Origin: Candidatus Omnitrophota bacterium
Lineage (GTDB): Bacteria > Omnitrophota > Gorgyraeia > JAHJTE01
Assembly (NCBI GenBank): GCA_040753675.1
Contig: JBFMEB010000008.1
Coordinates: forward strand, 6,736-70,735
Reading direction: 5' to 3'
DNA: 64,000 nucleotides
The position numbers were made by a program, and so were the translations under genes. The notes beneath the pieces were generated by a model that saw only the letters and a program-made list of their open reading frames with translations, was not told where the DNA came from and did no database searches. Within the stretch, counting starts at the first letter, position 1. The number at the start of each line of letters is the position of its first letter. Positions 2-18,000 of this stretch are shown piece by piece.

Positions 2-3000
2 AACGATTGGGCGGCAGCAGTCAAAGTTGATATAGCTGTAAATGTGGGAGGTAAAATTGAAGGTCCTCACCCGACCCTTACTGTTATTACTTCCAGAAAG
101 AATGGCCCCGAAGGGCTCTTAGATTATCTGGCTATTCTTGAGCAGGTTTTATTAAATGCTGATACATCATTTGAAACTGCATTTTCTCAAGAAGCAAGGG
201 ATAACAATAATCTCACTAAGGCAGTTTCAGTTGAGTGGTATGGGGATGATTATCCCGAGAATCAGACTACTGTATACGAAAACACAAGAAATATCGAAGC
301 ATACATTATGCTAAGGTTGAATAAGCGAGTAGCGCAGCCGCAGAAACAACTCTTGATGCGCGTATGGGGCAATTTATTGGATAATCCGCATTCATGGTTT
401 GAGATTCCTATGAAGATAGTGAATGATTATCAAAATGGTAGTTATCGCTTTAGAGGCATTTTGCCTCAGTTCTTTTCAGGTACATTTACTTACAGGTGTT
501 CACTCGATGGTGGTAGAACTTGGTTCTGGTTGAATAAGGGGCCTCAGGACAATAGGGTAATTATCAATAAGCTTGAGCCATCAGCAGAGTTAAGTGAAAG
601 AGAAACATTTATTCAATTTGCGCCACCTCGCACATCTCTAAGAAGTATGACTGAACAAGCACCAGACACAGAGCAATTCTACTATAGTAATAAGGATAGA
701 GGAGACGTTGCGAGGTTTACTCAAAATATTGCTGGAGATAAACGCTTTGTATACTATTTTGCCAGAGCACAGGTTAGCCAGGCAGAAGGCGAAGAAAATA
801 GGGTAATTTTTGCAGATTATATTGAGGGCAAAGACAAAAGGTTAGGTGGCTCAATCGCAATATACTTTACTAAAAAAGATATGACCATAACTATTGAGAT
901 GAATGGCGCAATGCAAAGTGAAACGGTAATATCAGATGACGCAGAAGAAGAGACGCGTGGCGAGCGAGGTTGGGATAGAGCCAAAATAGTAGTCTTTTTA
1001 GATGATGATTATACAGTGCGTAGCGTTGAGCATCTCAGGAGTTCTATGGGCCTGTCGCGGATTGCAATTTCGATATTATTGACTGATGCCGGTATCCCTC
1101 GTCTATTACCAGAATTATATAGCATTTTAAAAAGACAATTATCCCTATCAGATGTTGATGATCTATTGCGCCACGTTGAAAAAATAGATAATCAAATAGC
1201 ACCTCTAAGTTTGATTTCTCATATTAATGGCCTGCTTGCCTCTAAAAAAACGCAGGATATCACAGATGAAGATATTCTAAGAGTCAGAGACTTAATATAC
1301 TGCAAGAGCTGGATTATAAGAAGAATCACGTTAAAATGCCTATATAATTTAGTAAAGCATAATAGGTTCTCGGCTGAAGAGTTAGAAGAGCTAAGAGATT
1401 TTTCATTACGGAGTAATATTGCCGAAGATTTACATATATTCAGAAGAATGTTCATAGAAGACCCCCAGAGCATCGTCGATACGATTAATTCATTGTTTAA
1501 AATCCAGATAAACAGTCAAGACTTGGCACATGCTTATATACGCTGGTTTGGTGCAGGGCAAAATAAGAATATTTATAGGGCCACTATATTTTTACGCTCC
1601 GGCAAAGAATTCAGTATTGCCTTATCTACAATCAGGCATGATCCTATCGGAGAAGGCTTTGATAGAAAAAGAATTGATGAAGCTACAGAATTTTGGCGAG
1701 AATTATCTAATAATAATTGTCCTCAACTTTGCAAGTTTGGTATGTCGTTATGGGCCGAAGACTATAGGCCGCGCATAGCAGATAAACCTATTTTGCCTAC
1801 GCTAAAGAGGCAGGCATACGATACGAGCCGTTTGATTAGTAATGATGTACAAGTCGTATTGCGAGAGTTTGTAGAAGGTCATGACTTACAGCAGAGTGTA
1901 GATGAAGAGAATATTTCTCCGGAGGAGAAGCGAAAGGCAGTATCAACTTGTGTAAGACTAGTTAAAGGTCTTTGGAAATTTTCCTCCCAGCAGTTTTATA
2001 TAAGTGATTATAAACCAGCTAATATTGTATTGACCAAAGACGCAGAGGGGCAATTTGTAGCCAAGATAGTTGATTTAGATATACTGAGGGCAAACGGAGA
2101 GATTTCTGATTTGCTAGATTCTATGGAAAGCTATTCCTGTTATAAAGAATATCTTGCCGGATTAAAAGAATCGCTTGAATCAAGGCATAGCATCACTGGC
2201 GTTACTGCTAGAGAGCCCATAGATGCCTCGAGTCGCGGAAACAGCCGCGAAGGAGTTACTGCACTCATCAGCCAATTTGGCGGCATTGAGGCAATCATCC
2301 AGCAATTTGGCAGTTTAACAATTCAACAGATTAAGGAATTATATCAGATACCAGAATCAGACTTAACTCGTTTAGTTAATTTAGGTGTGCAGTTTACCCG
2401 TGGCCCTCCTGAACTTGGCGTTGCAAATCACTTCCAAGAAAATACTATTTACATTTTAATTCCTGTAAACGCAACTCTCCAAGAAGTCTCTCATGAAATA
2501 TTCGCAGTTCTTAATCCAGAAGTAACCCACCAGCAGAACCCCATCCGCCTTGCCATCAACAATCCTGGTCCTTCTGAATTTGAAATAATCCGCCAATACT
2601 TGAAAGGCAACTTATCCAGCATACAGCTTGTAAATGTAAACGGCGTATCACCTGCTAATCTGCATTACTTATTAACCAAGGACTTGGCAGCAGAGCCAAG
2701 CTTTAGACAATGGTTTAACCAGAATATCTTTGCTACTTCTTCTGGCTTAGCCAGTAAGGATACCTCTGGCAAAGAAGTTGAGCTCTTATCTGTAACTGAG
2801 ATTATTGAGACCAAAGACCTTCCCTGGAAGTCCTTGGATGTTGATGTAGTCTTAGAAGCTCAAGAGGTAAAACTTGCACCTGTGCATATAAACCAAGGCG
2901 CAAAGAGGGTCTTAGTAAATCATCCTTCAATCCTTGCAGTAAGTGCTTTAAGGCAAGTAGTCTTGAGTCTGCCCCAGGATAAGATTATTGCTGTTGAATT

Positions 3001-6000
3001 TACAGATATCCAGCCGCCTACTAATTTACAGCGCGGCTTAGACAATTCTGGTCCTGACCCAGTCTTAATGAGAGCAATGCGTATTAACGTTAGCTCTTGC
3101 TTTAGCCAGGATGTAAAACAGGTCCTTAGCCAGCTTATTCCCCAGTTAGCTCAAATTACCCAAGGCCGCATCCACTTTAGTCCTCAGGCTCAAGGTAGTC
3201 TCTTAGATATACACATAATCTTGAAAGAGGATACTGACATAAAGACCATTAATCAGTTGTTTAAACAAGCTTCTCTGACTAGCTTAAAAGATAGACTCAT
3301 CTACTCTGAGGATAATTCTATAGTCTCATCTGATTTAGCTGCAGAGCCAAAACTCATTTACTTATCCCGCTCTACCAAGGTCACTGGCAAGAGAATAGTC
3401 CACTTACAAGTCTGGCACAATGAGCATACTGGGTTTAGCTTAACCCAATTACCAGAGGTTTTATCTCTCTTGCAAACAAAAACTCCTGGCACTATTATCA
3501 GTTCAAAAGATTTATCAGCTATCCCAACTAAACTCGAACAACTCCTTAGCTGGGTTAGGACTCAAAGGCAAGATTTATCTATTAGTTCTGGTACCTCATC
3601 TTACTTACCTCATCCTACTCGCAAACTTCCTAAGATATTGCCGGATGATATCAGGGCAATTGTAGGCATTAATGGCCCAGGCAGAACTGGCCGCACTATT
3701 TGTTGGGCAATGGCTGGCAATCCTAACATTGACCTGCGTATGATCAACGGCGCATCCAGTGCCTTTGTCTTGATGTGGTTATTAGCAGAAGATACTGTGC
3801 AAGCCTCAACCCATAAGCCAGTAGCCAGACTCATCATTACCTATACTCAACTAAAAAGAGAATTAAACACCTTATTAGTAAACTATTCATACGAAGAAGT
3901 CCAGACCATGTTAGAAGGACTGATTAGTTCAAGTAGGCTCTTGGTATTAGAAGAAGATGAGTTTAATAAAGCCTTATCCAAGCTCTTAACTACCTGGGCT
4001 AATCAAAACCCAGAACAGGGAGTGAGTAAACTAAAAGCCTCTCTAATCGCAATATTAGACCTCTCTGGTAAAAAACTCCTCTTAACCAACGAACGAAAAG
4101 CAGTAAGCGAACTTGCCTGGAACCAGGCTGGTATAAACATTATCTTAGAATGTACTGGTGATTTAAAGAATGCAGATGAGGCAAGCCAGCATTTAACTAA
4201 CATCCCAGGCGGCAAGGTCATTATCTCAGCTCCAGCTGAAGGCGCTGGCCAGTCAGTAGTCCTGCCCATAATATTACCTTCTAAGGCAGCCAGGATTGTT
4301 GACAATGCCTCTTGCACTACTAATTGCTTAGTTCCTGCTACTTATGTTTTAGATAGAGAATTTGGAGTTATTGCTCAAGAGATACTTACTGACCATGCCT
4401 ATACCACTGACCAGGTGTTTGGCAAACATGCTCCTCATAAAAAAGAGCCCACCCGAGGAAGAGATGGAGGGATTAACATCCTGCCTGGCTCAACTGGAGC
4501 AGCCACAGCAGCAGCTAAGATTATTACGAGCTTAATTGGCAAATCTGATGGCTGGGCAGTAAGAGCTCCAGTAGTTACTGGAAGCGTGGTAGTTATTACT
4601 GCTGTGCTTAAAGGCAAGGTTAGCCGAGAAGATATACAACATGCCTTAAGAAAAGCCAGTCTTACCTACTTAAAAGGCGTACTTGGCTACACTGTTAATC
4701 CTATTACCTCAAGCAGCCTTATTGGTAATCCAGCTTCCAGCATTGCTGATGGTAATTCTATTCAAGTGATTAACTATGATGAAGAACTTAATCAGACCAT
4801 AGTAAGACTTGAGACCTGGTACGATAACGAAACTGGCTTCTCTACCAGAATGGTTGACCATGCAGTGTATGTTGCAGGCCTAATGCAATTACCCGGAAGA
4901 GTCATTGCTGACATAGGTCCTGATACAATTGAATTATTTAGGAAACATCTACAAGATAATCTATCTACAGAAGGCACTATTCTCTGGAACGGTCCATTAG
5001 GCGTAGTTGAGGTTCCTGTTACAGCCAAAGGCACAGAGGCAATAGCCGATACAATTGCAGGCCTACCTGCAAGTATTACCAAGGTCATTGGTGGTGGAGA
5101 CACCTTAAAGACCTTACCTGATTCTATCCGAAGACAGATGACCCACGTCTCAACTGGTGGAGGTGCATTCTTAGAGGCATTCCAATTCGGCGTTGAAAAC
5201 CTTCCTGGCTTAAAGGCATTAGTTGACCCAGAGACTAAACAATTCAGCCAATTAGATGAGCTGTTAGCTAAATTAAAAGATGGCGATAGCGTCTTAATCC
5301 GTGCTGACTTTAACGTGCCGTTAGATTCCCAGCTCAATGTCACTGATAATACCCGCATTGTTGAGGCCTTAGCTACTATCAGGGATATATTAAATACTAA
5401 AAAGGTAAAGGTGATACTCTTAACCCATCTTGGCAGACCCAATGGCAAGTATGATCCTAAACTTACTACTACTCCCATATATGAGGAATTATTAAGACTC
5501 TTACCTGAATATAAAATACATAAGGTAAATGACTGCGTTGGTGAACCAGTAAGACAATTTATTAAAGATACCTTAGCCCCCGGCGAGATTCTATTGTTGG
5601 AAAACTCCCGCTTCAGATTAGCTGAAGAGCTTAACTCTGATAGCTTCTCTCAAGAATTAGCTAACTTGGCTACTTATTATGTCAATGATGCCTTTGCAGT
5701 AAACCACAGGGCACATAGCTCTAACGTAGGGGTGACTAAATTCTTGAAGTTCGGCCATAAGTTTGCTGGCCGCCTCTTGGAAAAAGAATACCTCCACCTC
5801 AAAGCCCTTTGTGAAAACCCCACTCAACCTCTCATCGTGCTCCTGGCAGGCGGCAAGGTTGCTGACAAGATGCCTATTATCAATGCAGTTAAGGATAAGG
5901 CAATACTCTTCTTAATTGCTGGCAAGATGTCAGTTGCCTTCTTAGAAGCAAAAGGAATTAAAGTAGGCGATTCTTATCCGGATAAGCAAGATGTGGAATT

Positions 6001-9000
6001 AGCTGCTAAGCTCTTAGCTGACCCAACCTTAGCTCAGAAGATCATCCTGCCTATTGACTACACTGTAGTCACCGATGTCTCCACAGGAAAAGATGCCACA
6101 CTAGAGAAAGGAGATGTTCTTCCTACTGATACCTCTGTATTCGAAGCAGCATTTAGAGACTACTTGACTTATTATGTCCCTGACCAGACTCAGGAGGCAA
6201 AGGCAAGAGAACCAAGAGACGCCTCTGCTGAAGGCAAAACTCGCGAAGAAGTTACTACACTCATCAGCCAATTCGGCGGCATCCAGGCACTCATCAACCA
6301 ATTCGGCAGTTTAACAATTCAACAGATTAAGGAATTATATCAGATACCAGAATCAGACTTAACCGGCTTAATTGATTTAGGCGTGCAGTTTATTCGAGGC
6401 CCTCCTGAGCTTGGAGTTGCCAACCATGTTGAAAACTCCCTTACCTATATTATCATCCCTGAAACCGCCACTTCCAAAGAAGTCTCTCACGAAATAAATG
6501 CAGTCTTAAATCCCGAGCTTACTCATGAAGAAAATCCAATCCGCCTAAGTATATCTCTTTACGGACCTCATCCTTCACAAGAAGGGCTAAGGCTCTTATA
6601 TGAGAAGGTAGCAGGAGCACGTCAACAAAAACCAGCTGACTTTAGAATCAGAAGTCTCTATGCCTTCCCGGTTCAAAAACATGGCGCCACCCCTTCTGAT
6701 GCAATAAGTTTTGGTTGTGTTTTAGAAAGCGGCCCAATATTAGAACAGGCAGGAGTAATGGGAGGTATCTCAGCTGGCGAGGCAGAACCCGGAACACACG
6801 AGAGTATAAATGCTGCAATTAAATTCTTTAACGAATATGTAGCCAAAGAATTCATTGGCTTAAATGTCGCAGACCCAGAGAAAATAACTAAAAAAATTAT
6901 TGAATTAGACGATAAGTTTAAGGCTCAAGCTGAAAACAAAGATAAACCTCGTTTCTCTTACATTGGCTCTGAGATTTCAGTTGGTATCTCGATGATTGTC
7001 TCAATTGCCTTTGCTGAGAGATTAGGCGTTCCTTTGGAAATAGTTTTAAATTATCGTTACAATGAATATGCCCTAACCCATAATTTAGCTACAGGACTAA
7101 AGCCTATAACTATTCCAGTAAATTATTCAGTTGTCTGGGAAGGGGGAAAACACGGTGCAGCCAAATTCTTACCAGAATTAGTAGAAGCAGGCATTATTAA
7201 AGATGACAGCCGCTTCCCAAAGGAATTCAAAGACCCTGGGAGAATCGCAAAAGGCGATAAATCCGTTATGCTGGCAATGGTCCCGCCACAAGAGACCCAG
7301 GTCATTGTCTTTGCTCCTACCTGGAGACAGGCTCGTGATATAGGAATTAAGCTTACCAAAAAATATCAGGCCTTACTTAAGGAAAACGGAATTAATATAG
7401 AATATGGCGCTGAATCTGGCCGAACTACTAAACAAGTCTACACCAAAGATAAACGGCTTATTACCTTAGAATTAGTCTTAGATATTTTAGAAGATGCAGT
7501 AAATTCCCTGCCAGAAGAAGAGCAAAGATTTGTGCGCTATGCCTTAGACATTGCCTCTTCTGAAATGTATATACCAGAGATTGATATGTATTACATTGGT
7601 CCTTCTTCTGCCGGCAATGATAGCGGCTTAGTTACAAATGAAGAATTTACTAAATATAAATTAGAACTATTTAAGAGATATCCGCGCTTCATCTCCTGCG
7701 AAGACTGGGCAGATGAAAATAAAATAGAGCACTGGGAATCTGCTAAAGCCATAATGCCGACAATGATTCAGATGAGTGATGATAATGTGGTCTCAAATGC
7801 TCTCCTCATCAGGAAGTTTACCCAGGCAGGAGTAATGAATGCCCATTTACAAAAAGCTAATCAGTCAGCAGAAGAATTGGCTATGATTGAGGCAGTTGCT
7901 ACGAGCCACTTCTTAAATAATGTAGTTATCTTCTCTCACCGCGGCACTCGTCCAGAACTTGAGACATACACTGCAATTTCGGCTATAGCTATGGGTGCAT
8001 TTGCTGGCAAATGGACCTTATGGGGACCTGGAAGAGGTGCTTTAATTGCAGTTATGAATCAGGTAGATGAACTATATAACCAAGGTCCTTATAAAAATGT
8101 TACCGTTACTTATCAAGGCGGCCTTGTTTTAGATCCAAACGGCCCCTATAAAGATTATGGCTGGGCAAAGAGATTGAGAGAAGAGATTGGCTCTGCGGTT
8201 TATAAAAGGCGGCATATTTTAAAGCAACTTTTCAACAATAAGGTGGCTTCTAAAATAATTTATGTGGTGCTTAAAGGCGCAAGAGAAGAACTTGAAGGAG
8301 TTGCTCATCCTAATTTAGATAATATAGCAAAGCAATCTGCTTTAGGATTGATAAATATCGTTGGCGACCAAGGCAATACTCTTAATTTAGTTTTAGAAGA
8401 AGCTGCTAACCTGGGGATGGATGTTATTTCTTTTGCTGGAAAGAATTTGACTGAGCAAATCGAAGGATTAGAGACAAACATTCCAAATCATAATTTCTTC
8501 TCTTTAGAAATAGATAGCAGAGATGTAGGTAGTTTCGATGGTTTTATCCCGCAAATCCTCAGTATGATGAATTTTGAAAATGCCTATACATTGGTTATTA
8601 CTACAGACTCTTTTGACATCGCTCCAATTTTAATTTATTCCAAAAATAGCAGACAATATAAAGGTATAGATAGATTTACACAAGAACAGGCAAGAGAGGG
8701 AAGTTTAGGTGTCATATCAGGCCAGGATATTTTATCTTTGACACTTGGCCATGCGGGTAGATTGGATAAAGTAGATGGCCCGGTTGATACTGGCGATAAA
8801 AATGAGCCTTTTGTCGAAACAGTTCCTGGGTTAACTTATACAAGGAGTCCTTCTAAGATTGTTTTCTTGGTGATGGACGGATTAGGGGATGTGCCTTTTG
8901 ACGCTGATACAGCATTAGAAAAAGCTCATCATCCTAATTTAGATACTTTGGTAAAACAATCTTCTGTCGGATTAGTAGATATTTCTTCCCTGCCAGGCGT

Positions 9001-12000
9001 TACTCCGGGTTCAGGCCCGGGTCACGCTGCCATCTTTGGTTATAACATATTTAACTTTTTAGGAAGAGGCCCAGTAGATGCTTTAGGAGCAGGCCTTAAA
9101 GTAGGGCCTGGCAATGTTGTAGCCAGAGCTAATCTTGCCACGCTAAGAGATGGAAAAGTTGTTGATAGAAGAGCAGGCAGGCCTAAGACAGAGCAAACAG
9201 CAGAAATTGTTAAAAAATATCTTTCTGGCATAGAGATTAACGGAGTAAGGTTTAATTTTTATGCAACCCAAGAATATCGTATGGCGCTAATTATTGAAGG
9301 AGAGGATTTATATCCAGATGTTACAGACACTGATTCAGGAATGGGAGGAGTAGCTCCTTGGCCGGCTCAGGCACGTTCAGAAAAGGGAGTCAAGTTAGCT
9401 GGTTTAATAAATAAACTAACACCAGAGATAAATAGAAGATTAGCTGACAATGAAATTTTACCAGCAGCAAATACAGTATTGCTTAGGGCATTTGATATTT
9501 TAAAACCATTTCCTACTTTGAAAGAACTCTACGGCCTAACAGCTGGTGCAATCTGCACTCACGCTGCTTATAAAGGTATAGCTACTCTAATAGGAATGGA
9601 TGTTATTTCTTTTGCTGGCCAAAGTATTCCAGAACAAATTGAAGCGTTAAGAGCAAACGTCTCAAAATATGACTTTATATATTTTCATATCAAAAAGACA
9701 GATAGCTATGGGGAGGACGGAAATTTTGAGGCAAAGGTTAAGGTAATTGAAGAACTCGATAGCTTTATACCAACGATTCTTGAGATGCTTGATTTAGAAA
9801 GAAGCGATACTTTAGTCCTGACAGCAGACCATAGCACCCCTGCACGGATAAAGGCGCATTCTTTCCATCCTGTCCCTGTGCTTATATATTCTAATAGAAG
9901 CAAACCATCACCCGGCGTAGAAACATTCACTGAGCAAGAGTCCGAAAAGGGAAGTTTAGGCAGAATACCAGCCAAGGTTATTATGCCTTTGACGTTATGG
10001 CACGCTGGTAAGGCGGAGAACTCAGGGCGCTCTGGAGGTTCTCAAAATATATTCTTTAGCATCGTCTCTGGCATTGGATTGGTAACTCCATCTGGCCTCT
10101 CCCTTGAATTAGATTCAATCTCGTATCTATTAATGGCTGGATTATTATTCGTAGGCTTATTGACTCACATTCCAGTTATTGAAGTGCTACGTGCGCATCT
10201 GGAAGAATTGATTTATGCAAAATCAAAGATGCCCTTCTATTATTCTTCTGAGCCGGAAAGGGAAAATCTCTTTATTGGCGTAGATGGCAAAAGAATATTG
10301 ACCAATCAGGATTTTGGAATATTGCTTAACAATTTGCAACTTCTCATAGGTTTTGTCAAAGAATGGCGCGATGGTTCTAAAGATATGCCATTTGCTGATT
10401 ACATAAAAGGCAAAATAGGCGCAGGGTCGCTGAAAGTTGAAATACAAAAAGAGCAAGGCCGTCAGCTAAACTTTAGAATCGGTGATGCCGTTGATATAGC
10501 GATGGATATCGCCACATTGGAGATTATCAATCAAAAGGGCTTGTCATTTTTACCAAGGTCTCAACATTATGCATCGATAGCAAGAGCGCGTTATAGACAT
10601 GAGATGGGAACTGAGGTCTTAATGGACGGCGAAGCCAATATGGGACTGGATACCTTTATTAGCTGGGAAAGAATAATTGAAGATAATATTGACAAAATTT
10701 CCAAAGCAGAAAGTACATTGCAAAAACTAAATTATGTTGGCGAAGACCAAAGTTTTGAAATCAAACTTGATGAAGAGAAAAATGTTGGAGAAGATGAAGA
10801 AATAGCCAAGATTGATGAGCAGCTGTGGCTACAAGATACCTTCTTTACTCTAGATGACCATCAAAACGTAGTGAATTGGCTCAACGGCCTTTATTATAGT
10901 GCTTTTGGCAGTGACGCCTTTGGAAGATTAGATAAACGGGGGACTTTGGAAGAGGCAAATGCGAAACAAAGTGCCCAGGACCTGCATGAACAATTACGTC
11001 AATTAGAAAAAGATGGCAATCTGCCAATGGGTGAGATGGTCGTTCATGAATGGGGTGCTGGCGACGGATTTTCAGCTGCAGTCTTTCTAGATATGATGCA
11101 CCAACTCGACGGGCAACACGGGACAAATTATTATGGAAGGTCAGCATATTATTTGATTGATTATTCCCAAAGAGTTGTTGAAGATTTTGCAGATAAACCT
11201 TATTTATTACCCCACAGACAAGTCATACGATTTATTCAAGCCGATGCCTTAGAGGCCAATGACAGCCTGCCCAAAGCCATTCTCATTAGGGCCAATCTTT
11301 TATTGAATTCTCTGCCTCGAAAGCTGATTAGGATAAGTGGCAGGCGGGGTGATGACATCCAAGAGGTGACGACTCGTGCTTATTTGAATCTTGGGCCTGA
11401 GGAAGAAATCGCGGACTTATCAGGTAAGCGCTACTTGATACCAGAATTAAAACGAATTATTTTAGAAGGCGATGTTGAGGCGCTTAGGAAATTAGGCATA
11501 AACTTTTTCAATCGTATCCAATGGAAGACCAAATACGAGAAAATAGATACTCATTACTACCCTTACAGAGAATATTTAGAGACTCTAGATGACTTAGGTC
11601 CGCGACGATGGGAACCATTTAGAGGAATGGTGACTCTTGAGTTAGGCACCCTATTCTTTTTGCAGCATAGAGTTAATAATCTCAGTAGGGAAGGTAAGAT
11701 ACAAATTAGTGATGCCGGTGTTAGTCCGTTTGATCTTCGGGAAAGTTCGAGCAATAATTTGGGAAAAATATTTAGATTCTACGGAGCGATATATTCCCCG
11801 GTTAATTATCACTTTCTGAAATTTAGCTTAGGGTTATCAATTTCGCTGGGAGTTGTTCACCAAGTCGACTTTGGCTTTGAATTCGTAGAAAGAAGAATCA
11901 AATTATGCAATGTCCTTAATGTTCTACAGGATTTTTCAACTTTTAAGAAGCTTTTCGGCTCTCCCTTTGCAAAGCCGGAAGTTTTGCAGTTAGCCTCAGA

Positions 12001-15000
12001 AGAAAGCGGGGAGTTTAGTGGAGAGAATATGGATAGGTTTATCGAGCATTTAAATAACAGAGCCCAAACATTAAATCGCCGACTTATTGAAGAGATAGTT
12101 CGTCCTTTTGAGGAAACCAGTCAATATGTAGATAATTTTGCAGATGCCTATGTGTATTGGCTCTACAGAGCAGTTCAGGACAGAAGAGAAGAATTGTTAA
12201 GAAAACAAAAATGGTTAATTCCGGGTAGTTGGCAGAGGTTGGCATTTGATAGTGAGCATAACGCATTTGCTCACCTTGCTGCTATTTACGGTTTTGACCA
12301 AAAGATCGACTCTATCTTTGCTGATATGAAATTCTTTTTCCCGAGCTTAATGATTTTTGATATTAAGCCAAGCAAAAGAGGAGGAAAGGTTTTACGCTTC
12401 ACTCCCCTCAGTTCTCTTATGGCTATTACTAAAATCTTTGGCAATGCGTTTCCAGGAGCCTTGCAATTACCCGCGTCATTCTCAAAGCGCAAAGATACTG
12501 CCATCGCCGGAGATAATAAAAATAGAGAAGCTGCCTTAGATATTTCAATGGCAAATGATGGGCTGATTTTTGAGATACCACAGGCGAAGAATGATGAGCT
12601 TTCAAGCCTTCCTTATGAATATGTTATTGTTCCATTAGTTGTTTCAAAGGAAAAAATTCCAGAGCCGCTTAAAGAGCTTATTGCTCAAACCAAGGGAACT
12701 GAAAAAGAGATTTCCCAAGCGGTGGTGAAATATCTGACTGAACAATTTAGCGCCACATCCATTAGCGTCCTTTCTAAACAAGTGCGGTCGCATAAGATTG
12801 CGGATGAAAAAGACTCAGAGGGGAAACCGCTAGGTCCAATTATCTTAGATGCATTATCTGCTATTGCAGTTATAAGCAGTAGCGGCGACCTTTTAATCCA
12901 GACACACTTCTGGATTAATTATAAATATATGGCATTTATTAATGAATGGAATGGAGAAATCGCTGAAGGTTTAGCTAAGTGTGAAGTTAGTCTTAGCGAT
13001 GAGTGGTATAAAGAAATTGACTTAAGCAAGCCGTTAGAATCATTAGCGCGTTACGGATTTATGTTCTTTAAGGAATTTAGCGAAGGTAATTATGGTCGAG
13101 CAAATCTTTTAGCCAGTCTCATTGATTCTATCAATAGAGATATTGAAAAACTTATCAACCCGGAAGGGATTATCTACGACGAACAATTGGGCGTGTTTAT
13201 TTCATCAAAGGATAGCGATGCTAAAATCCCTGGCTTTGGAAAGCATTTAGAGAAATTTTTAGGTAGTCTTAATAGCGTCCAGCAATTAGCTCAACTCTTG
13301 TATCTGTTGGCTACACCTAACTACGACAGAGAGCAAAACTCACCCATAGCGGTTAATAATCAACAATTACAAAATGGCCTTGTTGAGTTCTTTTGTCGCC
13401 TAAGTCGGCATTTAGACACATTAGCTATAGGGCACTTTGGTGATTTTGCTATGTTTGAGCCATTAAGGATAGAACTCGGTAGAATAATTACTCAATTCAA
13501 TAGAGTGGTTAGAGAACCGGACGCTATGGAGATTAATGGCACTGATTTTGATAGCTTAATTACCTTCCTTGAAGATAAAGGTGCCTACGTCTCAAATTAT
13601 GACGCTGAAAATCTTAGAAGCTTGTATCAAGCTTATGCTTTAGAGAACGGCTATTGGGCTTATGATATCTTGCAATTATCTGAAGTTTTGGGAATTGAGA
13701 GTTTTGTTAAGGCATTTAGGTTCTTGAAAGTTGAATCTGCGAGAGCAGTAAAGCCATCAGAGAGGCCTAATGAAATTTTTGATGGCACAGGCCGCATTGG
13801 ACGTTTAGGTTTGGCTTTAAGACTTGCCAATGATGTGAAAGCCCAAGAGGCAGATTACTCCGGCCGCTACGCAGTTAGAACGCGCGCTCTCAAAGGAAGC
13901 AATGCTGATGAAAAATTCCTGACCGCCCTTGAAAGCGTAAAAGATATGTTTGCTGACAGCGTCATTGAGGCATCTGGCTTAAAATTGCGCGGCAGGACTT
14001 TAGCAGAGTTGATTAAGGACAATCAATTAGTCTTTAAACCAGCCGACAGAGTTTTTGTTGCCAGGCAGGATTTTGTGAATAGAACCCCGGTTGAAAGTGT
14101 CTATCCAATTTATATTGAACTCGACGCTAAAAGAATAGGGGTCATCTATGCTATTGATGTAACTCAGTTTACCGAAGGCCTTAAAGCCAGTGGTGTTATA
14201 GAAGATAATTATCCCCGACCCTTTATCGTCGAAGTCGATGGTGAAGACATTTATTTTGGAATGCTCACTGATGCTACGCCGGGTGGTGTGCAGATGGGCG
14301 ATGGCACAATTGAACTAGCTGGTAAAGCCAAATTAGAAAGGCCGACTGTCTGGGAAATGATTGCCACAACCAAATTAACTGAAAGTGCTTCAGAAGAATT
14401 AGGCGCTGCTAAAGAAGAGTTAGAGCGACTACGTGAAATCTTGCGTCAAGTTGAGACTGCAAGATTCGGGGCCTGGCATCAGCGCTTCATTTATCTTAAA
14501 GCCCAGATTACCGGAAAACTCTTGTTGCCTTTAAGCGGCGGCATTCATTTTATGGGTAGATACTTGCATAAATTGCCTAAGGCAAAAGAACAGGGTCCTT
14601 ATTATGCAACGCCAACCTCTTGCTCTACCAACGGCGCCTCTTACTTTAGTCTTATGCTTTCAACGCTCTTTGGTTTTGGCCGTATGAGAGCAGCGCTCTT
14701 AGGGACAACATTCCATATGTATACATCTGACGGGAAAAAAGGCCCGTTCGGACACTTATTCCCTAAATCCACTGGCGCGGCAAACGGTGTTAAGCAGCAC
14801 CTGGATATTACAGCTATGTTTACAGCTCTTCGCACCCCGGTTGCTTTGACAGGCGGTGAGGTAGATGTTGTAGGCGGTTCAGTCTTTGATTTTGTGTTCC
14901 AAACTCCTTATCCAGTCCCCAAAGAAGTGATTATAGGTTTCTTGCAACGCGTTGGCCTTGAGTATCCCGAGGTTTTGAAGGTCTTTGAAAAAGAAGATGC

Positions 15001-18000
15001 CAAAGATGGTCGTTATCTTTGGAAGGATACAATAGGGGGCAAAAGAACCGGCTCTATACTTTATGCTAATATGCTGGCGCAAATTACCGATAATACCTTC
15101 CGGGTTCCTGTTGGTTACGACAATGAAATGAGTTTTTCTTTCAAGATGAATGAGTTCGCAGAAAGCTTATTCTTGTCTTTGAAGAGACAGGAGGACAAGA
15201 GAAAAAGGCAAGAAGCATATCCTCTTCATTTTATTACGGCCAAGGCGATGGTTAGGGCAGCTGATGAATACCTGGCAGAGCCGATGATTGAAGCCCAGTT
15301 CAGGCGCTTAGGTTTGATACTCGAACATTTTGCCGAAGAATATTTAAAGAGATATTATCCTAATGGCTCTGATCTTCCTATTTCGGAAGAGTTAAAGATT
15401 GCTTCTCATATTTCCGGCAGAATGAAATGGGAAATTAACAACGGCGAAGAAACCTTTAAGCGAATCCTAAAGAATCTTGGCTATACTTTTGAAGATATTG
15501 ATTTTGCCTTGGAGCAGATTAAGCTTCACGAATCTTACTCAAGCGAAGATGAGGCAATATTAGCGCAGGCAGAGTCTCTGCGCAGTGGAATATATGAAGA
15601 GCCGGGTTATTCTGGCAGCCCGGTCTGGTTTGAAAAAGTGCAATGGGTAAATTTGGGCTTCGATGAATATAAACAAGGCCTTTTGGAGGTTGGGAGGGCT
15701 TTAAGCTCAGGCGAATTTGATAAAAATTCTACTGTTTATAGATTATGGCAACGCCGGGATTGGGATTTTTCAGATGAAGGCATAGAGCCATATAGAGCAG
15801 TAGTCGAAGAATTTAATAAATTTGTTAACCAGCCGCTAAGCCGCGAACAGGGGCCAAGGCAATTGAGGGATTTTATTATACGGCTGCATATCTTATTAGG
15901 CCAGGCAGACAAAACTTTTAGCGCTCCCGGCAGGATGCTGCCCCGAAGAGATAAATGGAGAAGAAGGCATGTGGCTTTCGAGCGCCTGCTCTTCTATATG
16001 TTTACGCCTAAATTCCAGGAGCAATTGCGCAAAGACCCGTTTGAGGCAGCCAGTTATGTATTTATTGGCTTATGGAGTGAGCCGGTATTCTCAGACGGCC
16101 AACTGCGTATCGCATATTTTATTATGAATTATGTTTTAATCAAAGCCGGGTTTAAACCTTTTATAATTACTAAAGATAATATTGGAAAATATACAGATGC
16201 ATTCATACTTTATTCCAGCGCTCATTATAAAAGTATGGCTAAAAATATATTAGAAAATTTACTTAGCGGACAACCTCGGGCTCATTTATGGTTTACCTCA
16301 TCCTTACCGGATTATGTGAGCTTAGAGCCTGAGCGAGAGCCCCGGTTTAAGAGAGAAGAAGTTAGGGAGGGTGTTTTGGATGGCGAATGGCTTGAGTCAG
16401 TAGAAGCACTTCCAAAAGACCTGACTGTTTCGGAATTATCCATATTATTAGAACATCCTTTTGATGATTTCTGCGACTTTGCGATTGATGAATTAGAAAG
16501 CATAGGCGACAGAAGGGCAATAGTTCCTCTTTATGACAGAGTTAAGCAACTTCAGGATGAGGCGGCAGGCATGGATAGATATGGTAAACAAATTGTATTT
16601 GGAAGGCACGGGAGTTCTTTTGTAGGCGCTTCCTGGGATGAGATTGAGGAAAATCTCGAATGGCGTAATATTATGTCAGAGATTGGAAGAATTCTTTATT
16701 GTATCGATGCCATAAGAAACAGGGAGGCAAAGAGATTCGCGCGTTACTATTATCCAACTGCAGGATTAGGCAAATTATATCGCGAAAGAATTGTAGATAT
16801 TATTGAAAATGGCAGGATGAGGGAAGAATTATTTGAAGGAAACGTGGGAGAATTCATCAAACTCATCCGTGCTTATGATAAAAAGCATGGAACAAATCTT
16901 TCCCAGCAGGTTGTGTTTGCAGGCGGCTCGGTAAGAGACCCTATATTTGGAAGATTTAGCAATGATATTGACTTTAGCGTGGCTTTACCTGGTTTGAGTA
17001 ACGGAGATTTTTATGCCAATACCATTGCTCAAGTCTCTGATGTGGATATGGAAAGATGCCTTAAGATACTCATAACTGTTGCAGAGATTATCGGGGTTGA
17101 GCCCGAATCTTTGGTAAACGGAAAGGCAAAATTTCAAGGTGAGGAAATAGATTATTGCGGCCCGATAAGGCAAAGGTTGTCAGACGGCCGGGTGATTAAT
17201 AAAAGAAGGATTTTGGTTGATATAGATAGGAATACAATTTATACCGATTGCACTATGGCGCTTAATAGAATTGCTATGGATATGGACGGCAAGATGTACG
17301 GAAGCTTATTCGGCCTTTTTGATTTCTTAAGAGGTAAAATTCATTTTGGCGGGGATTACAAGGATATTACCTTGAATAATGTAGTCAGGGCTTTGAGGAC
17401 CTCATTTGGTACTGATACGCAAATCTCCAGGTTTGACCAGGATAGGATGAGAGAAGTAATAGAAAAATATAGAAGCGGAGAATATCCTTTGGTTACCGTA
17501 GACGTAGAAGTTATCCAGCGCCAGATTGATAGGATGGAAAGGGGAGAAAAGACTCCCGGTTCAGCTGTAAAATTATTAGAAAGATGGGGCATAATAGAAT
17601 TATTGGTTGAAGCCAAAAAGGCAATTGAGGTAACTGCGCCAGAACAAATTTTACATACAGAAGGCGTGTTTGTTTCTAAGGCCGAGCAGCCAAAAAAAGA
17701 GCCGACTATCTCTCTCACAGATGCGCCAGCTATGGGCGTTAGGCCAGATAGGGCAGGGCTTTCTGAAGAAGAAAGAGAAATGTTAAGGAAAATGTCCGAA
17801 GCTGAACGACTTGCTCATCTTAGGGATAACACAACTACCTTGCTTAGTATAATTCTGCTGGCTTTATTATTTTTTAGCGGCAAGGAAGCGGTATCTTTAA
17901 TGGCTATGTCATTTATGATGATGGCTACAGTAGCCGAAGTCAAAGGCAATAAAGGCATTGAGGAAACCTTAAGGAGATTTTACACAGCTAAGAAGGCACT

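What the first reader, a model, noticed from the sequence alone, without database searches (positions are those of the whole stretch)
2245..6600. Thrice-repeated unknown module with motif FGGIE...SHEIxAVLNPExTHEENPIRL; copies 1 and 2 share a 59-nt perfect identity
Copies sit before the GAPDH block (2245-2640), between PGK and enolase (6245-6600) and before the ACAD domain (45470-45900), always at junctions between enzyme domains. Copies 1 and 2 retain 59 identical nucleotides (2309-2367 = 6305-6363) despite ~4 kb spacing, implying recent duplication or gene conversion. The conserved His/Glu-rich motif (HE.......THEEN) could be a metal site. Its placement invites the speculation that these are processing or docking modules of a polyprotein.
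Basis: partly seen in the sequence, partly recalled or inferred. Interest (0 to 1): 0.55.

Follow-up and report, generated by a model that had tools for sequence, protein, structure and literature searches.

The report
Zincin-like junction module in giant polyprotein
A small, previously undescribed protein module with a conserved His-Glu...His centre sits three times at the seams between metabolic enzymes inside one enormous (>21,000-residue) bacterial protein. It is the best current candidate for the part that cuts or clasps such giant proteins.

Summary
The whole 64-kb window is one stop-free reading frame that tiles metabolic enzymes. It holds exactly three copies of a ~120-150-aa module, at nt 2213-2572, 6209-6568 and 45425-45886. 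Each copy sits within 4-50 residues of an enzyme domain. The 59-nt identity (2309-2367 = 6305-6363) is exact. It is a short gene-conversion tract, not a recent duplication, because synonymous divergence outside it is about 1.3.

No Pfam, NCBIfam or PDB sequence match exists. The family is rare: 41 clusters among 1.84 billion representatives. Members with a source name are nearly all from Candidatus Omnitrophota MAGs, and all eight fetched loci are stop-free across their whole length.

Asp11, His101 and His113 are invariant, and Glu102 and Ala105 nearly so. A confident AlphaFold model (pLDDT 90) shows four helices, a three-stranded sheet and a helix carrying His-Glu. No Foldseek hit is significant, but zinc metalloproteases (SPRTN, ZMPSTE24, lethal factor, M1, M61) recur among the top hits.

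Best reading (about 0.4): a divergent mini-zincin-like metal site (HExxA...H instead of HExxH) that processes the polyprotein at selected junctions. The main rival is a non-catalytic clasp or docking domain. It is a new domain family, and it makes the question "are these giants cleaved?" testable.

The parts
2..64000 (+). Single open reading frame covering the whole window (21,333 codons, open at both ends). It is a multi-enzyme giant polyprotein: GAPDH, PGK, enolase, ApgM, AAA_5, two 2-oxoacid:ferredoxin oxidoreductase sets, GNAT, HATPase_c, ACAD, PRPP synthetase, kinase, GT9, HAD, M49.
   Evidence: No stop in this frame against 719-2,117 stops in the other five frames. Pfam domains all lie in this frame.
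2213..2572 (+). Module copy 1 (aa 738-857), type A. Asp741 = nt 2222-2224, His831-Glu832 = nt 2492-2497, His843 = nt 2528-2530.
   Evidence: BLASTP vs copy 2 E 1.6e-55. HMM 2e-82. Motif positions.
6209..6568 (+). Module copy 2 (aa 2070-2189), type A. Asp2073 = nt 6218-6220, His2163-Glu2164 = nt 6488-6493, His2175 = nt 6524-6526. This is the copy that was modelled.
   Evidence: AlphaFold2 model pLDDT 90.2, pTM 0.81.
45425..45886 (+). Module copy 3 (aa 15142-15295), type B, with a ~40-aa insertion in the helical half. Asp15145 = nt 45434-45436, His15264-Glu15265 = nt 45791-45796, His15276 = nt 45827-45829.
   Evidence: BLASTP vs copies 1 and 2 E 1e-7 and 5e-9. HMM 4e-65. Closest relative is L001.
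45887..45967 (+). C-terminal extension of copy 3, ending in V-L-D-R-S-A-S-D (aa 15314-15321). It echoes the N-terminal strap L-Q-D-R-S-S-Q-G. A G-x-[IV]-[LA]-D-[RP]-x motif occupies this place in 8 of 11 type-B relatives.
   Evidence: Alignment of type-B C-terminal extensions and regex hit at aa 15316.
2309..2367 (+). 59-nt tract identical to 6305-6363 (codons 770-789, GSLTIQQIKELYQIPESDLT). It lies in the least conserved part of the module.
   Evidence: Exact identity. 0 of 12 synonymous sites differ against 62% elsewhere. No RNA structure signal: MFE -4.5 vs shuffle mean -4.9.
6305..6363 (+). Partner of the 59-nt gene-conversion tract.
1844..2152 (+). Weak protein-kinase-like match directly upstream of copy 1 (aa 615-717).
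   Evidence: Pfam Pkinase E 0.001, below the gathering score.
2591..3415 (+). Divergent GAPDH unit starting 4-7 aa after copy 1 (aa 864-1138).
   Evidence: Gp_dh_N E 3.6e-4 and Gp_dh_C E 5.4e-8. Internal repeat with aa 1522-1636.
3662..4795 (+). Canonical GAPDH unit (aa 1221-1598).
   Evidence: Gp_dh_N 9.7e-15, Gp_dh_C 1.2e-37.
4913..6166 (+). Circularly permuted PGK. The C-terminal piece (aa 1638-1742) precedes the N-terminal piece (aa 1755-2055). The block ends about 12 aa before copy 2.
   Evidence: Pfam PGK 2.8e-99, profile 8-278 at aa 1761-2037. The sequence shows the WNGP...GGGD...STGGGA motifs upstream.
6800..8065 (+). Enolase (matched aa 2267-2688). Its inferred N-terminus, at about aa 2210, lies about 20 aa after copy 2.
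   Evidence: Enolase_N profile 59-127 at aa 2267-2345. Enolase_C 1e-16.
46043..47236 (+). Acyl-CoA dehydrogenase (aa 15348-15745), starting about 50 aa after copy 3.
   Evidence: Acyl-CoA_dh_N, _M and _1 at 8.8e-18 to 1.1e-35.

Best explanation
The module is a compact two-part domain found so far almost only in the giant multi-enzyme polyproteins of Candidatus Omnitrophota. It has an N-terminal strap (E-P-x-D-A/R-S-x-x-G), a four-helix bundle, and a three-stranded sheet followed by a helix that carries an invariant His-Glu. After the helix is broken by Asn-Pro, an invariant His follows 12 residues downstream of the first His (H-E-I-x-A-V-L-x-P-x-x-x-H-x-x-N). I read it as a divergent mini-zincin-like metallohydrolase. 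His101 and His113 would hold a divalent metal, as the first and third ligands do in metzincins (HExxHxxGxxH). Glu102 would be the general base. The usual second His is replaced by an invariant Ala, and the invariant Asp11 of the strap is the likely substitute ligand or an active-site plug. Its most probable job is limited proteolysis of the polyprotein that carries it, in cis at or next to its own boundaries. That would separate enzyme blocks such as [GAPDH-GAPDH-PGK] | [enolase-ApgM...] | [ACAD...], or free blocks from neighbouring membrane anchors. Shown: three copies, junction placement, purifying selection, family-wide invariance of D/H/E/H, a confident sheet-plus-helix model, and restriction to giant ORFs, most of them labelled Omnitrophota. 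Inferred: the zincin relationship, metal binding, peptidase activity, the cis substrate and the cleavage position.
For: Conservation: across 31 aligned family members, Asp11, Pro72, His101 and His113 are invariant, and Gly16, Phe68, Pro91, Glu102 and Ala105 are at least 90% conserved. The region between is variable. Selection: dN/dS between window copies 1 and 2 is 0.18-0.20 at dS about 1.3. Structure: AlphaFold2 with this alignment gives pLDDT 90.2 and pTM 0.81, with helices 19-64, strands 67-71, 78-82 and 85-91, and helix 96-107 bearing His-Glu. The trimmed core refolds the same way, at pLDDT 85. This is the core described for minimal zincins and for the metallopeptidase domains of polyvalent proteins: a three-stranded sheet plus an active-site helix (PMC3890501, PMC5512222). 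Fold search: zincins recur among the top, non-significant Foldseek hits in three searches. These are ZMPSTE24, anthrax lethal factor, M61, SPRTN and 4l7a; IrrE, M48, SprT-like, lethal factor and polyvalent-protein domains; and SPRTN (prob 0.69, TMq 0.52), LTA4 hydrolase, MATCAP and M61. Loop confidence: the block holding His113 drops from pLDDT 88 to 61 when the N-terminal half is removed, which suggests the strap or bundle packs on it. Placement: the module lies within 4-50 aa of an enzyme domain in all three window copies. In relatives it directly follows a glucan-phosphorylase-like region, follows PEP-utilizers_C by about 55-75 aa, and precedes UDPGP, HD and metallophosphatase-like regions. 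Boundaries: in L004 two copies share 342 identical nt that begin exactly at E-P-Q-D-A-S. Site-like straps: strap-only sites without the core occur directly before RpiA (P0005) and before a transketolase-like region (L007), as expected of recognition sites. Type-B modules repeat a D-R-S/R motif at both ends. Context: the literature already expects cleavage of these giants but knows neither the protease sites nor the cleavage points (10.1101/2023.11.21.568195).
Against: The defining HExxH motif is absent, and Ala at +4 is nearly invariant. No Foldseek hit is significant (best E 0.23-0.6 in PDB, 0.017 in BFVD). There is no Pfam, NCBIfam or PDB sequence hit. Profile comparison with the HExxxH modules of the same proteins gives only 5.8% probability. 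Iterated HMM searches do not reach any HExxH module significantly. I could not inspect model coordinates, so the proposed Asp/His/His site geometry is untested. There are only three copies for more than 25 enzyme domains in 21,333 residues, so the module cannot be the general junction processor. No cleavage product is documented for any of these proteins. Perfectly homogenised copies in L004 and P0006 fit a homotypic pairing role at least as well.
Confidence: 0.4

Rival explanations
1. A non-catalytic clasp or docking domain (pseudo-zincin). The module binds another copy of itself, or a short strap peptide such as x-D-A/R-S-x-x-G. It would tie distant parts of the giant chain together, for example closing a loop around GAPDH-PGK or clamping two membrane helices. 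The conserved His/Glu/His/Asp would then hold a structural metal.
For: Copies within one protein are often kept identical: 342 nt perfect in L004, two identical copies in P0006, and a 59-nt conversion patch in the window. In L004 the two copies flank a TM-outside-TM segment on what appears to be the cytoplasmic side. The N-terminal strap shows a beta bridge at residue 13 in the model. The mini-zincin Acel_2062 dimerises by inserting its N-terminal strand into its partner's sheet (PMC3890501). The missing second His and the lack of any significant protease hit fit a degenerate site. Anthrax lethal factor, which has a zincin-derived docking domain (my own knowledge), is among the top fold hits.
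Against: Inactive zincin derivatives usually lose the Glu. Here His-Glu is kept in nearly all members and is lost only in a few clearly degenerate ones (P0037, P0029, P0039). Window copies 1 and 2 have diverged to dS about 1.3, so they are not being homogenised as wholes. Many protein fragments show a single copy. No partner is known.
Confidence: 0.3
2. A small metal-dependent enzyme or sensor acting on something other than the polyprotein. Examples are a trans-acting peptidase against prey or host proteins, an amidase or esterase acting on a metabolite, or a metal- or redox-sensing regulator of the adjacent enzyme.
For: The same conserved D/H/E/H set and fold apply. The few copies per protein fit a dedicated activity rather than general processing. 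Polyvalent-protein metallopeptidases are also proposed to act as effectors (PMC5512222). About a quarter of instances are followed within 70 aa by a hydrophobic helix, so the module is often membrane-proximal.
Against: The neighbours are cofactor-dependent cytoplasmic enzymes, not secreted effectors. The tight placement at domain seams, the strap-only sites and the precise module boundaries are not explained by this reading. The ~70-aa core has no obvious substrate pocket beyond a peptide groove (inference).
Confidence: 0.15
3. A conserved linker cassette whose main significance is at the DNA level. Repeated homologous cassettes would serve as recombination joints that shuffle, duplicate or delete enzyme blocks inside giant genes, and the protein part would be merely tolerated.
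For: There are gene-conversion footprints. Identity starts and stops exactly at the module edges. Enzyme blocks in the window show duplications and a circular permutation.
Against: dN/dS is about 0.2. Residues are invariant over a family that is only 25-66% identical. The fold prediction is confident. The 59-nt tract has no RNA structure signal. A DNA-level role does not exclude a protein function.
Confidence: 0.07

Closest known systems
Zincin-like metallopeptidase (MPTase) domains of phage and plasmid 'polyvalent proteins' (Iyer et al. 2017, PMC5512222)
   Same: Small domains interspersed, sometimes in several copies, between unrelated enzymatic domains of very large polypeptides. The core is a three-stranded sheet plus a helix carrying His-Glu. 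Motif variants (HExxxH) are tolerated. They are proposed to autoprocess the carrier protein. Several 'large polyvalent protein-associated' entries appear among the BFVD fold hits.
   Different: Those domains keep HExxH (or HExxxH) plus a Glu on a second C-terminal helix. The module here has HExxA, a His at +12 in a loop, no predicted second helix, an N-terminal four-helix bundle and a conserved Asp strap. No significant sequence or structure match was found. The carriers are cellular metabolic polyproteins of Omnitrophota, not mobile-element effectors.
Minimal zincins: Acel_2062/DUF1025 mini-zincin and the minigluzincins (PMC3890501 and its reference 5)
   Same: A ~110-aa domain with a three-stranded mixed sheet, short loops and very little sequence after the last ligand. 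An N-terminal strand can add to a sheet.
   Different: Those carry HExxHxxGxxD or HExxH...E. Pfam PF06262 does not match the module. Peptidase activity is unproven even for some of those.
SprT/SPRTN/Wss1-type metalloprotease domain (PDB 6mdw)
   Same: Best-probability structural neighbour of the trimmed core (Foldseek prob 0.69, TMq 0.52, 82 columns). It is a small zincin whose third ligand is a downstream His.
   Different: The E-value of 0.36 is not significant and identity is 10%. SPRTN has HExxH. Its DNA-dependent function has no counterpart shown here.
C39 and S8 peptidase domains proposed to cleave Omnitrophota giant proteins ('Archaeovorins', West-Roberts et al. 2023, 10.1101/2023.11.21.568195)
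   Same: The biological question and the host proteins are the same. They too are candidate agents of post-translational cleavage of the giant polypeptide.
   Different: Those are known cysteine and serine peptidase families placed near the termini. The module here is an unannotated family placed at internal enzyme junctions. Neither of the two giant-gene preprints I term-searched mentions it.
Cis-acting proteases of viral polyproteins (my own knowledge: for example picornavirus 2A and 3C, alphavirus capsid protease)
   Same: Concept only: a small protease embedded in the polyprotein cuts at its own boundary and defines the mature units.
   Different: There is no homology. Those are serine or cysteine proteases. 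Cleavage here is hypothetical.

Membership tests
Zincin metallopeptidase superfamily | HExxH motif on the active-site helix (two His ligands plus a catalytic Glu) | tested here: not met
   The family motif is H-E-[IV]-x-A. Ala at +4 is at least 90% conserved across 31 members, while His and Glu are kept.
Zincin metallopeptidase superfamily | Three-stranded (or larger) mixed sheet preceded by a helix and followed by the active-site helix | tested here: met
   AlphaFold2 models show helix 55-64, strands 67-71, 78-82 and 85-91, and helix 96-107 with His101-Glu102 (pLDDT 90.2). The trimmed core has the same order of elements. The definition is taken from PMC5512222 and PMC3890501. This is a predicted structure, not a solved one.
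Zincin metallopeptidase superfamily | Third metal ligand (His, Glu or Asp) downstream of the motif | tested here: inconclusive
   An invariant His lies 12 residues after the first His, just past an Asn-Pro helix break. This spacing resembles the metzincin HExxHxxGxxH (my own knowledge). No second C-terminal helix is predicted.
Zincin metallopeptidase superfamily | Statistically significant sequence or structure similarity to an established zincin | tested here: not met
   Pfam and NCBIfam give nothing at E<=10. The PDB profile search gives nothing relevant. Foldseek best E is 0.23-0.6 in PDB and 0.017 in BFVD, and zincins only recur among non-significant hits.
Zincin metallopeptidase superfamily | Zinc binding and peptidase activity | not testable with these tools
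   This needs metal analysis and cleavage assays.
Multi-enzyme giant proteins of Candidatus Omnitrophota (West-Roberts 2023; Nielsen & Lui 2026, class 1) - the carrier, not the module | Single ORF of more than 10,000 codons | tested here: met
   21,333 codons without a stop, open at both ends.
Multi-enzyme giant proteins of Candidatus Omnitrophota - the carrier | Many distinct enzyme Pfam families tiled along the polypeptide, including sugar and central-carbon metabolism, HATPase_c, GNAT and HAD | tested here: met
   Searches match the description in 10.64898/2026.06.07.730766 and the glycolytic domains noted in 10.1101/2023.11.21.568195.
Multi-enzyme giant proteins of Candidatus Omnitrophota - the carrier | Encoded by an Omnitrophota genome | tested here: inconclusive
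   The window itself was not found in any collection. Its module relatives lie in 4 MAGs labelled Omnitrophota and 3 loci from 2 MAGs labelled 'uncultured Planctomycetales'. Of 10 family proteins looked up, 7 are named as Omnitrophota, one carries no name, and 2 sit on short contigs binned to Bacteroidales and Nitrospirota.
Pfam DUF4157 / SprT-like / DUF6782 small metallopeptidase families | A match to the family HMM above or near its gathering score | tested here: not met
   The module has no hit at E<=10. Only other HExxH-type modules of related proteins give faint hints: DUF6782 at 0.059 and SprT-like at 0.14.

The most novel reading that the evidence does not exclude
The module is the founding member of a new family of self-processing metalloprotease domains. 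Its metal site would be built from His(i), His(i+12) and an Asp supplied by an N-terminal strap (HExxA...H plus D). Such domains would mark the real cleavage points of Omnitrophota giant polyproteins. The >20,000-residue 'proteins' would then be operon-like precursors cut into defined multi-enzyme units such as GAPDH-PGK and enolase-PGM. Intragenic gene conversion would keep the cutters and their sites matched.
Probability: 0.3. Interest if true: 0.85.

Novelty: new variant of a known kind. Interest (0 to 1): 0.62.

Why it matters
Omnitrophota encode the longest known proteins: up to 85,804 aa in the 2023 preprint and 147,155 aa in the 2026 one. The literature states that it is unknown whether these proteins act as one chain or are cut, and that no cleavage points are known.

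A conserved, selected, catalytic-looking module placed exactly at enzyme seams gives that question a concrete handle. There are four residues to mutate, a ~120-aa domain to express, and predicted neo-termini to look for in proteomes.

If the module is a protease, it would show that bacteria use viral-style polyprotein processing for central metabolism, and it would add a zincin variant with a split metal site. If it is a clasp, it would explain how a 60-kb gene product is folded into local enzyme assemblies.

Either way it is a useful annotation marker for domain boundaries in sequences that are otherwise largely 'dark'.

Tried and rejected
1. Known-domain assignment failed. Pfam at E<=10, NCBIfam at E<=10 and a PDB sequence profile search found nothing meaningful. 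The Glyoxalase, SDR and TBP hits at E 0.16-2 cover 30-60 residues and are chance.

2. The search for homologous proteins, with 3-sequence and 31-sequence alignments, returned no hit. The word index evidently does not reach these long fragments. The exhaustive representative search did reach them.

3. The first genome-contig scan, with patterns from the helical half, found nothing, and so did the viral contig scan. An 8-sequence type-A alignment worked.

4. I tried to bridge to canonical zincins through sister modules of the same proteins. hhalign against the GRAPPEL...YHELISHI (HExxxH) modules aligns RAPP with RAPP and HE with HE, but at 5.8% probability. Four rounds of HMM iteration over 150,000 aa of giant-protein sequence recruit only further HExxA...H.EN variants (L007 4951, P0023 325). 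They touch HExxH modules only at E 0.4-1. Profile searches of the HExxxH module alignment and of the window's HEGVH region against PDB sequences found nothing.

5. An RNA or regulatory explanation for the 59-nt identity is rejected. The MFE of -4.5 kcal/mol is no better than the shuffle mean of -4.9 +/- 2.4.

6. Recent duplication is rejected by dS of about 1.3.

7. Other catalytic folds were considered from memory and set aside. A cytidine-deaminase-like H-A-E...PCxxC site lacks the Cys pair. HNH and PD-(D/E)xK nucleases have the wrong strand and helix order. R-S-E ADP-ribosyltransferases have too few strands and no ExE. An intein-like H-N self-cleavage is unlikely because the Asn is replaced by Ile or Val in five aligned copies from four distinct members. 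The (HhH)2-like look of the helical half (F-G-G-I...F-G-S-L) is only a resemblance, and no HhH family scored.

8. A fourth, degenerate copy in the window was not found at E<=10.

9. Model coordinates are not exposed, so ligand distances could not be measured.

Full report
**What the window is.** Frame 2 of the + strand has no stop codon in 21,333 codons. The other five frames have 719-2,117 stops, and the ORF listing finds only one other ORF of at least 150 aa. Pfam domains tile this one frame. They are a weak kinase-like region, two GAPDH units, PGK, enolase, archaeal-type phosphoglycerate mutase, several AAA_5 ATPase domains, two complete 2-oxoacid:ferredoxin oxidoreductase sets, GNAT, HATPase_c, acyl-CoA dehydrogenase, PRPP synthetase, a protein kinase, GT9, HAD and an M49 peptidase at the window's end. 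This is the 'multi-enzyme metabolic cluster' type of giant protein described for Candidatus Omnitrophota (10.64898/2026.06.07.730766). Glycolytic domains in 'Archaeovorins' are noted in 10.1101/2023.11.21.568195, and giant ORFs over 20 kb are reported as common in the phylum (PMC10066038).

**The observation.**
- Copies 1 and 2 (aa 736-857 vs 2068-2189) are 73% identical, E 1.6e-55.
- Copy 3 (aa 15145-15309) is 29-30% identical to the other two, E 1e-7 to 5e-9, and has a ~40-aa insertion.
- An HMM of the three finds no fourth copy even at E 10.
- The 59-nt identity is exact and unique to these two places.
- The pair is one of only two long direct DNA repeats in 64 kb.

**Junction placement.** Copy 1 follows a weak kinase-like match (aa 615-717) and ends 4-7 residues before a divergent GAPDH unit (aa 864-1138) that earlier scans had missed. 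Copy 2 begins about 12 residues after the PGK block and ends about 20 residues before the inferred start of enolase. Copy 3 ends about 50 residues before the acyl-CoA dehydrogenase. The statement 'always at junctions between enzyme domains' therefore holds.

**The 59-nt tract.** Over 120 aligned codons, copies 1 and 2 are 74.6% identical in DNA. They have 32 synonymous and 33 non-synonymous codon differences. Nei-Gojobori estimates outside the tract are pS 0.62, dS about 1.3 and dN/dS 0.18. The tract's 20 codons hold 12 synonymous sites with no change, which has a chance of about 1e-5. The tract lies in the least conserved stretch of the family and has no RNA-folding signal. These are therefore two old copies under purifying selection, patched by a short gene-conversion event. 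They are not the product of a recent duplication. Conversion is a family habit. In locus L004, two copies 2.8 kb apart share 342 identical nucleotides that begin exactly at E-P-Q-D-A-S. Protein P0006 carries two identical copies.

**Relatives.**
- The exhaustive HMMER scan of 1.84 billion cluster representatives found only 41 proteins at E<=1e-3 and 28 at E<=1e-10. Most are long fragments of up to 7,357 aa, and several carry two copies.
- I looked up ten of them. Seven are named as Candidatus Omnitrophota MAG proteins, each annotated after one embedded enzyme ('phosphoglycerate kinase', 'ribose 5-phosphate isomerase A', 'GNAT family...'). One carries no name. Two sit on short contigs binned to Bacteroidales and Nitrospirota.
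- A pattern scan of GTDB species representatives gave seven loci. Four are in Omnitrophota MAGs and three are in two MAGs labelled 'uncultured Planctomycetales'. A JGI metagenome scan gave one locus.
- All eight loci are stop-free over their whole 8-20 kb. L001 carries DUF1152, UDPGP, cupin-GPI, HD, HAD, PGM and GDH domains.
- The window's own sequence is in none of the collections.

**Family anatomy.** The 31-sequence alignment A3 is 25-66% identical to copy 2. Asp11, Pro72, His101 and His113 are invariant, and Gly16, Phe68, Pro91, Glu102 and Ala105 are at least 90% conserved. The consensus is:

P-x-D-A/R-S-x-x-G ... G-G-I ... G-V-x-F-x-R-[AG]-P-P ... Y-I-I-x-P ... H-E-I-x-A-V-L-x-P-x-x-x-H-x-x-N

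Two subtypes exist. Type A is R-G-P-P-E-L-G-V-A-N (window copies 1 and 2). Type B is R-A-P-x-G-W-x-I-G-A, with an insertion and a C-terminal extension (window copy 3 and L001). More distant variants keep the same hallmark: L-V-R-A-G-P...L-I-H-E-I-G-A...S-H-Q-E-N in L007, H-E-I-I-A-A-L...N-H-E in P0023, and A-H-E-A-G-A-I-A-G-L-P-H-R-E-N in L008. So H-E-x-x-A...H is the signature of the family, not an accident of the window. A few members have lost His, Glu and His together (P0037, P0029, P0039) and look degenerate.

**Structure.** AlphaFold2 on A3 gives a confident model (pLDDT 90.2, pTM 0.81). It shows an N-terminal strap with a beta bridge at residue 13, four short helices (19-64), three strands (67-71, 78-82, 85-91), and a helix (96-107) bearing His101-Glu102. 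His113 lies in the loop after an Asn-Pro break. The trimmed core refolds in the same order at pLDDT 85. The block holding His113 falls from pLDDT 88 to 61 without the N-terminal half, which suggests that half packs on it.

Foldseek finds no significant neighbour. Best E is 0.6 (full model) and 0.23 (core) in PDB, and 0.017 in BFVD. Zinc metalloproteases nevertheless recur among the top hits in all three searches:
- ZMPSTE24, anthrax lethal factor, an M61 aminopeptidase, SPRTN and the putative metallopeptidase 4l7a.
- IrrE, M48, SprT-like, lethal factor and 'large polyvalent protein-associated' entries.
- SPRTN (prob 0.69, TMq 0.52), LTA4 hydrolase, MATCAP and M61.

A three-stranded sheet followed by a helix that carries His-Glu is how the minimal zincin core is defined (PMC3890501; PMC5512222). 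I treat this as a lead, not a proof.

**Mechanism proposed.** This paragraph is inference. His101 and His113 sit either side of a helix-breaking turn, much like the first and third ligands of metzincins (HExxHxxGxxH, my own knowledge). The second ligand position is an invariant Ala, and an invariant Asp arrives on the N-terminal strap. The simplest model is a metal held by His101, His113 and Asp11, with Glu102 as general base. The strap could then be a built-in ligand. It could instead be a plug or product left in the groove, like the aspartate switch of astacin-type zymogens (my own knowledge).

The likely substrate is the carrier polyprotein itself, for these reasons:
- The module lies at tight seams.
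- Its DNA-level boundaries are exact.
- Strap-only sites without a core occur directly in front of RpiA (P0005) and of a transketolase-like region (L007), in proteins that also hold full modules.
- In 8 of 11 type-B modules a G-x-[IV]-[LA]-D-[RP]-x motif lies about 45 residues after the core. It echoes the N-terminal x-D-R-S-x-x-G. Window copy 3 has L-Q-D-R-S-S-Q-G and V-L-D-R-S-A-S-D.

In the window, cutting at the three modules would give units that pair consecutive pathway steps: GAPDH-GAPDH-PGK, then enolase-mutase and onwards, then ACAD and onwards.

**Why confidence is limited.**
- The defining HExxH is absent.
- No search reaches significance against any zincin.
- hhalign against the HExxxH modules found in related giant proteins gives 5.8%.
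- HMM iteration does not connect to HExxH modules.
- Coordinates could not be inspected.
- Three copies cannot serve more than 25 junctions.
- No cleavage is documented.

The chief rival is a non-catalytic clasp or docking domain. It is helped by the homogenised intra-protein copies and by L004, where two identical modules bracket a TM-outside-TM segment. It is also helped by the strand-insertion dimer of the mini-zincin Acel_2062. About a quarter of family instances are followed within 70 residues by a hydrophobic helix. Type-A modules often show P-[ST]-V-A-G just before that helix. Both readings can accommodate this.

**Novelty.** The giant multi-enzyme genes are known. This module is not: there is no Pfam or NCBIfam model for it. 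Term searches of the two giant-gene preprints turned up no mention of it, and a library search found no paper linking Omnitrophota with zincins. The 2023 preprint names only C39 and S8 peptidases as possible processors and states that cleavage points are unknown. I class the module as a new variant of a known kind: a small His-Glu metallohydrolase-like domain embedded in a polyprotein. The closest conceptual precedent is the metallopeptidase domains of phage and plasmid polyvalent proteins.

Noticed in passing
window 4913-6166 (aa 1638-2055): The phosphoglycerate kinase is circularly permuted. Its C-terminal piece (ILWNGPLGV...GGGDT...STGGGAFLE, aa 1638-1742) comes before its N-terminal piece (Pfam PGK profile 8-278 at aa 1761-2037). 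The boundary segment is echoed at both ends (PDTIELFRKHL and PTDTSVFEAAFRDYL).
   Followed up: partly
window 2591-4795 (aa 864-1598): Two GAPDH units lie in tandem. A divergent one (aa 864-1138; Gp_dh_C 5e-8) starts right after module copy 1, and a canonical one follows (aa 1221-1598). This may be an intramolecular pseudo-dimer of an enzyme that normally oligomerises.
   Followed up: partly
window ~18360-18630 (aa ~6120-6210; HEGVH at aa 6174): This is the only canonical HExxH site in the 21,333 residues. Its context looks zincin-like (AIGVTT...TLICMYPLADLPEFERTFIHEGVHFATHLG...SDEVIAEAV). It is a second candidate small metalloprotease module and has no PDB sequence match.
   Followed up: partly
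window 24415-25099 and 26354-27067 (aa 8138-8366 vs 8785-9022); DNA repeat 24676-24835 / 26650-26809: A second repeated unknown module is 45-54% identical in protein and 83% over 160 nt. It contains LLYLLLVEETSHLLLPFETDNLTIELATF. It is the only other long direct repeat in the window.
   Followed up: no
window aa 2746-2961 vs 2947-3381 (nt ~8237-10144): Internal repeats lie within and before the ApgM/Metalloenzyme region (34-45% identity). They suggest a partial duplication or rearrangement of the mutase, as with PGK and GAPDH.
   Followed up: no
window aa 9650-9749 vs 9840-9939 (nt ~28949-29818): A pair of 41%-identical hydrophobic segments lies inside a cluster of predicted transmembrane helices (aa 9650-10310). 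The giant protein is therefore membrane-anchored at several points.
   Followed up: no
L001 aa 980, 2598, 5142; also P0014, P0019, P0022, P0032: Another repeated junction module has the motif LGRAPPEL..W.L.ITTDL..TQGNVAAC.I..KTVYLHPYFF...ILYHELISHI.KG..DEA..DT (HExxxH). It has up to four copies per fragment and is absent from this window. It shares the R-A-P-P and H-E landmarks with the finding's module, but hhalign probability is only 5.8%.
   Followed up: partly
L004 nt 9549-9890 and 12327-12668: Two module copies share 342 identical nucleotides. They flank a segment bounded by transmembrane helices, whose ~850 aa look extracellular from their sequence. L004 also has three near-identical copies of a different HEETH-containing module.
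   Followed up: partly
P0005 aa 376-442; L007 ORF aa 1515-1535: Strap-only sites (K-D-A-S-A-E-G-K/R-S...) occur without the sheet-helix core. They lie directly upstream of a ribose-5-phosphate isomerase domain and of a transketolase-like region. They may be recognition sites or remnants.
   Followed up: partly
P0006, P0024, P0025, P0026, P0028, P0039, L003 (10-20 aa after the H..N motif): A recurrent P-[ST]-V-A-G motif follows type-A modules and usually precedes hydrophobic helices. Its meaning is unknown.
   Followed up: no
window 4792-5478, minus strand: This is the only other ORF of at least 150 aa in the window (228 aa). It lies antisense to the GAPDH/PGK coding region and is most likely a chance antisense frame.
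   Followed up: no
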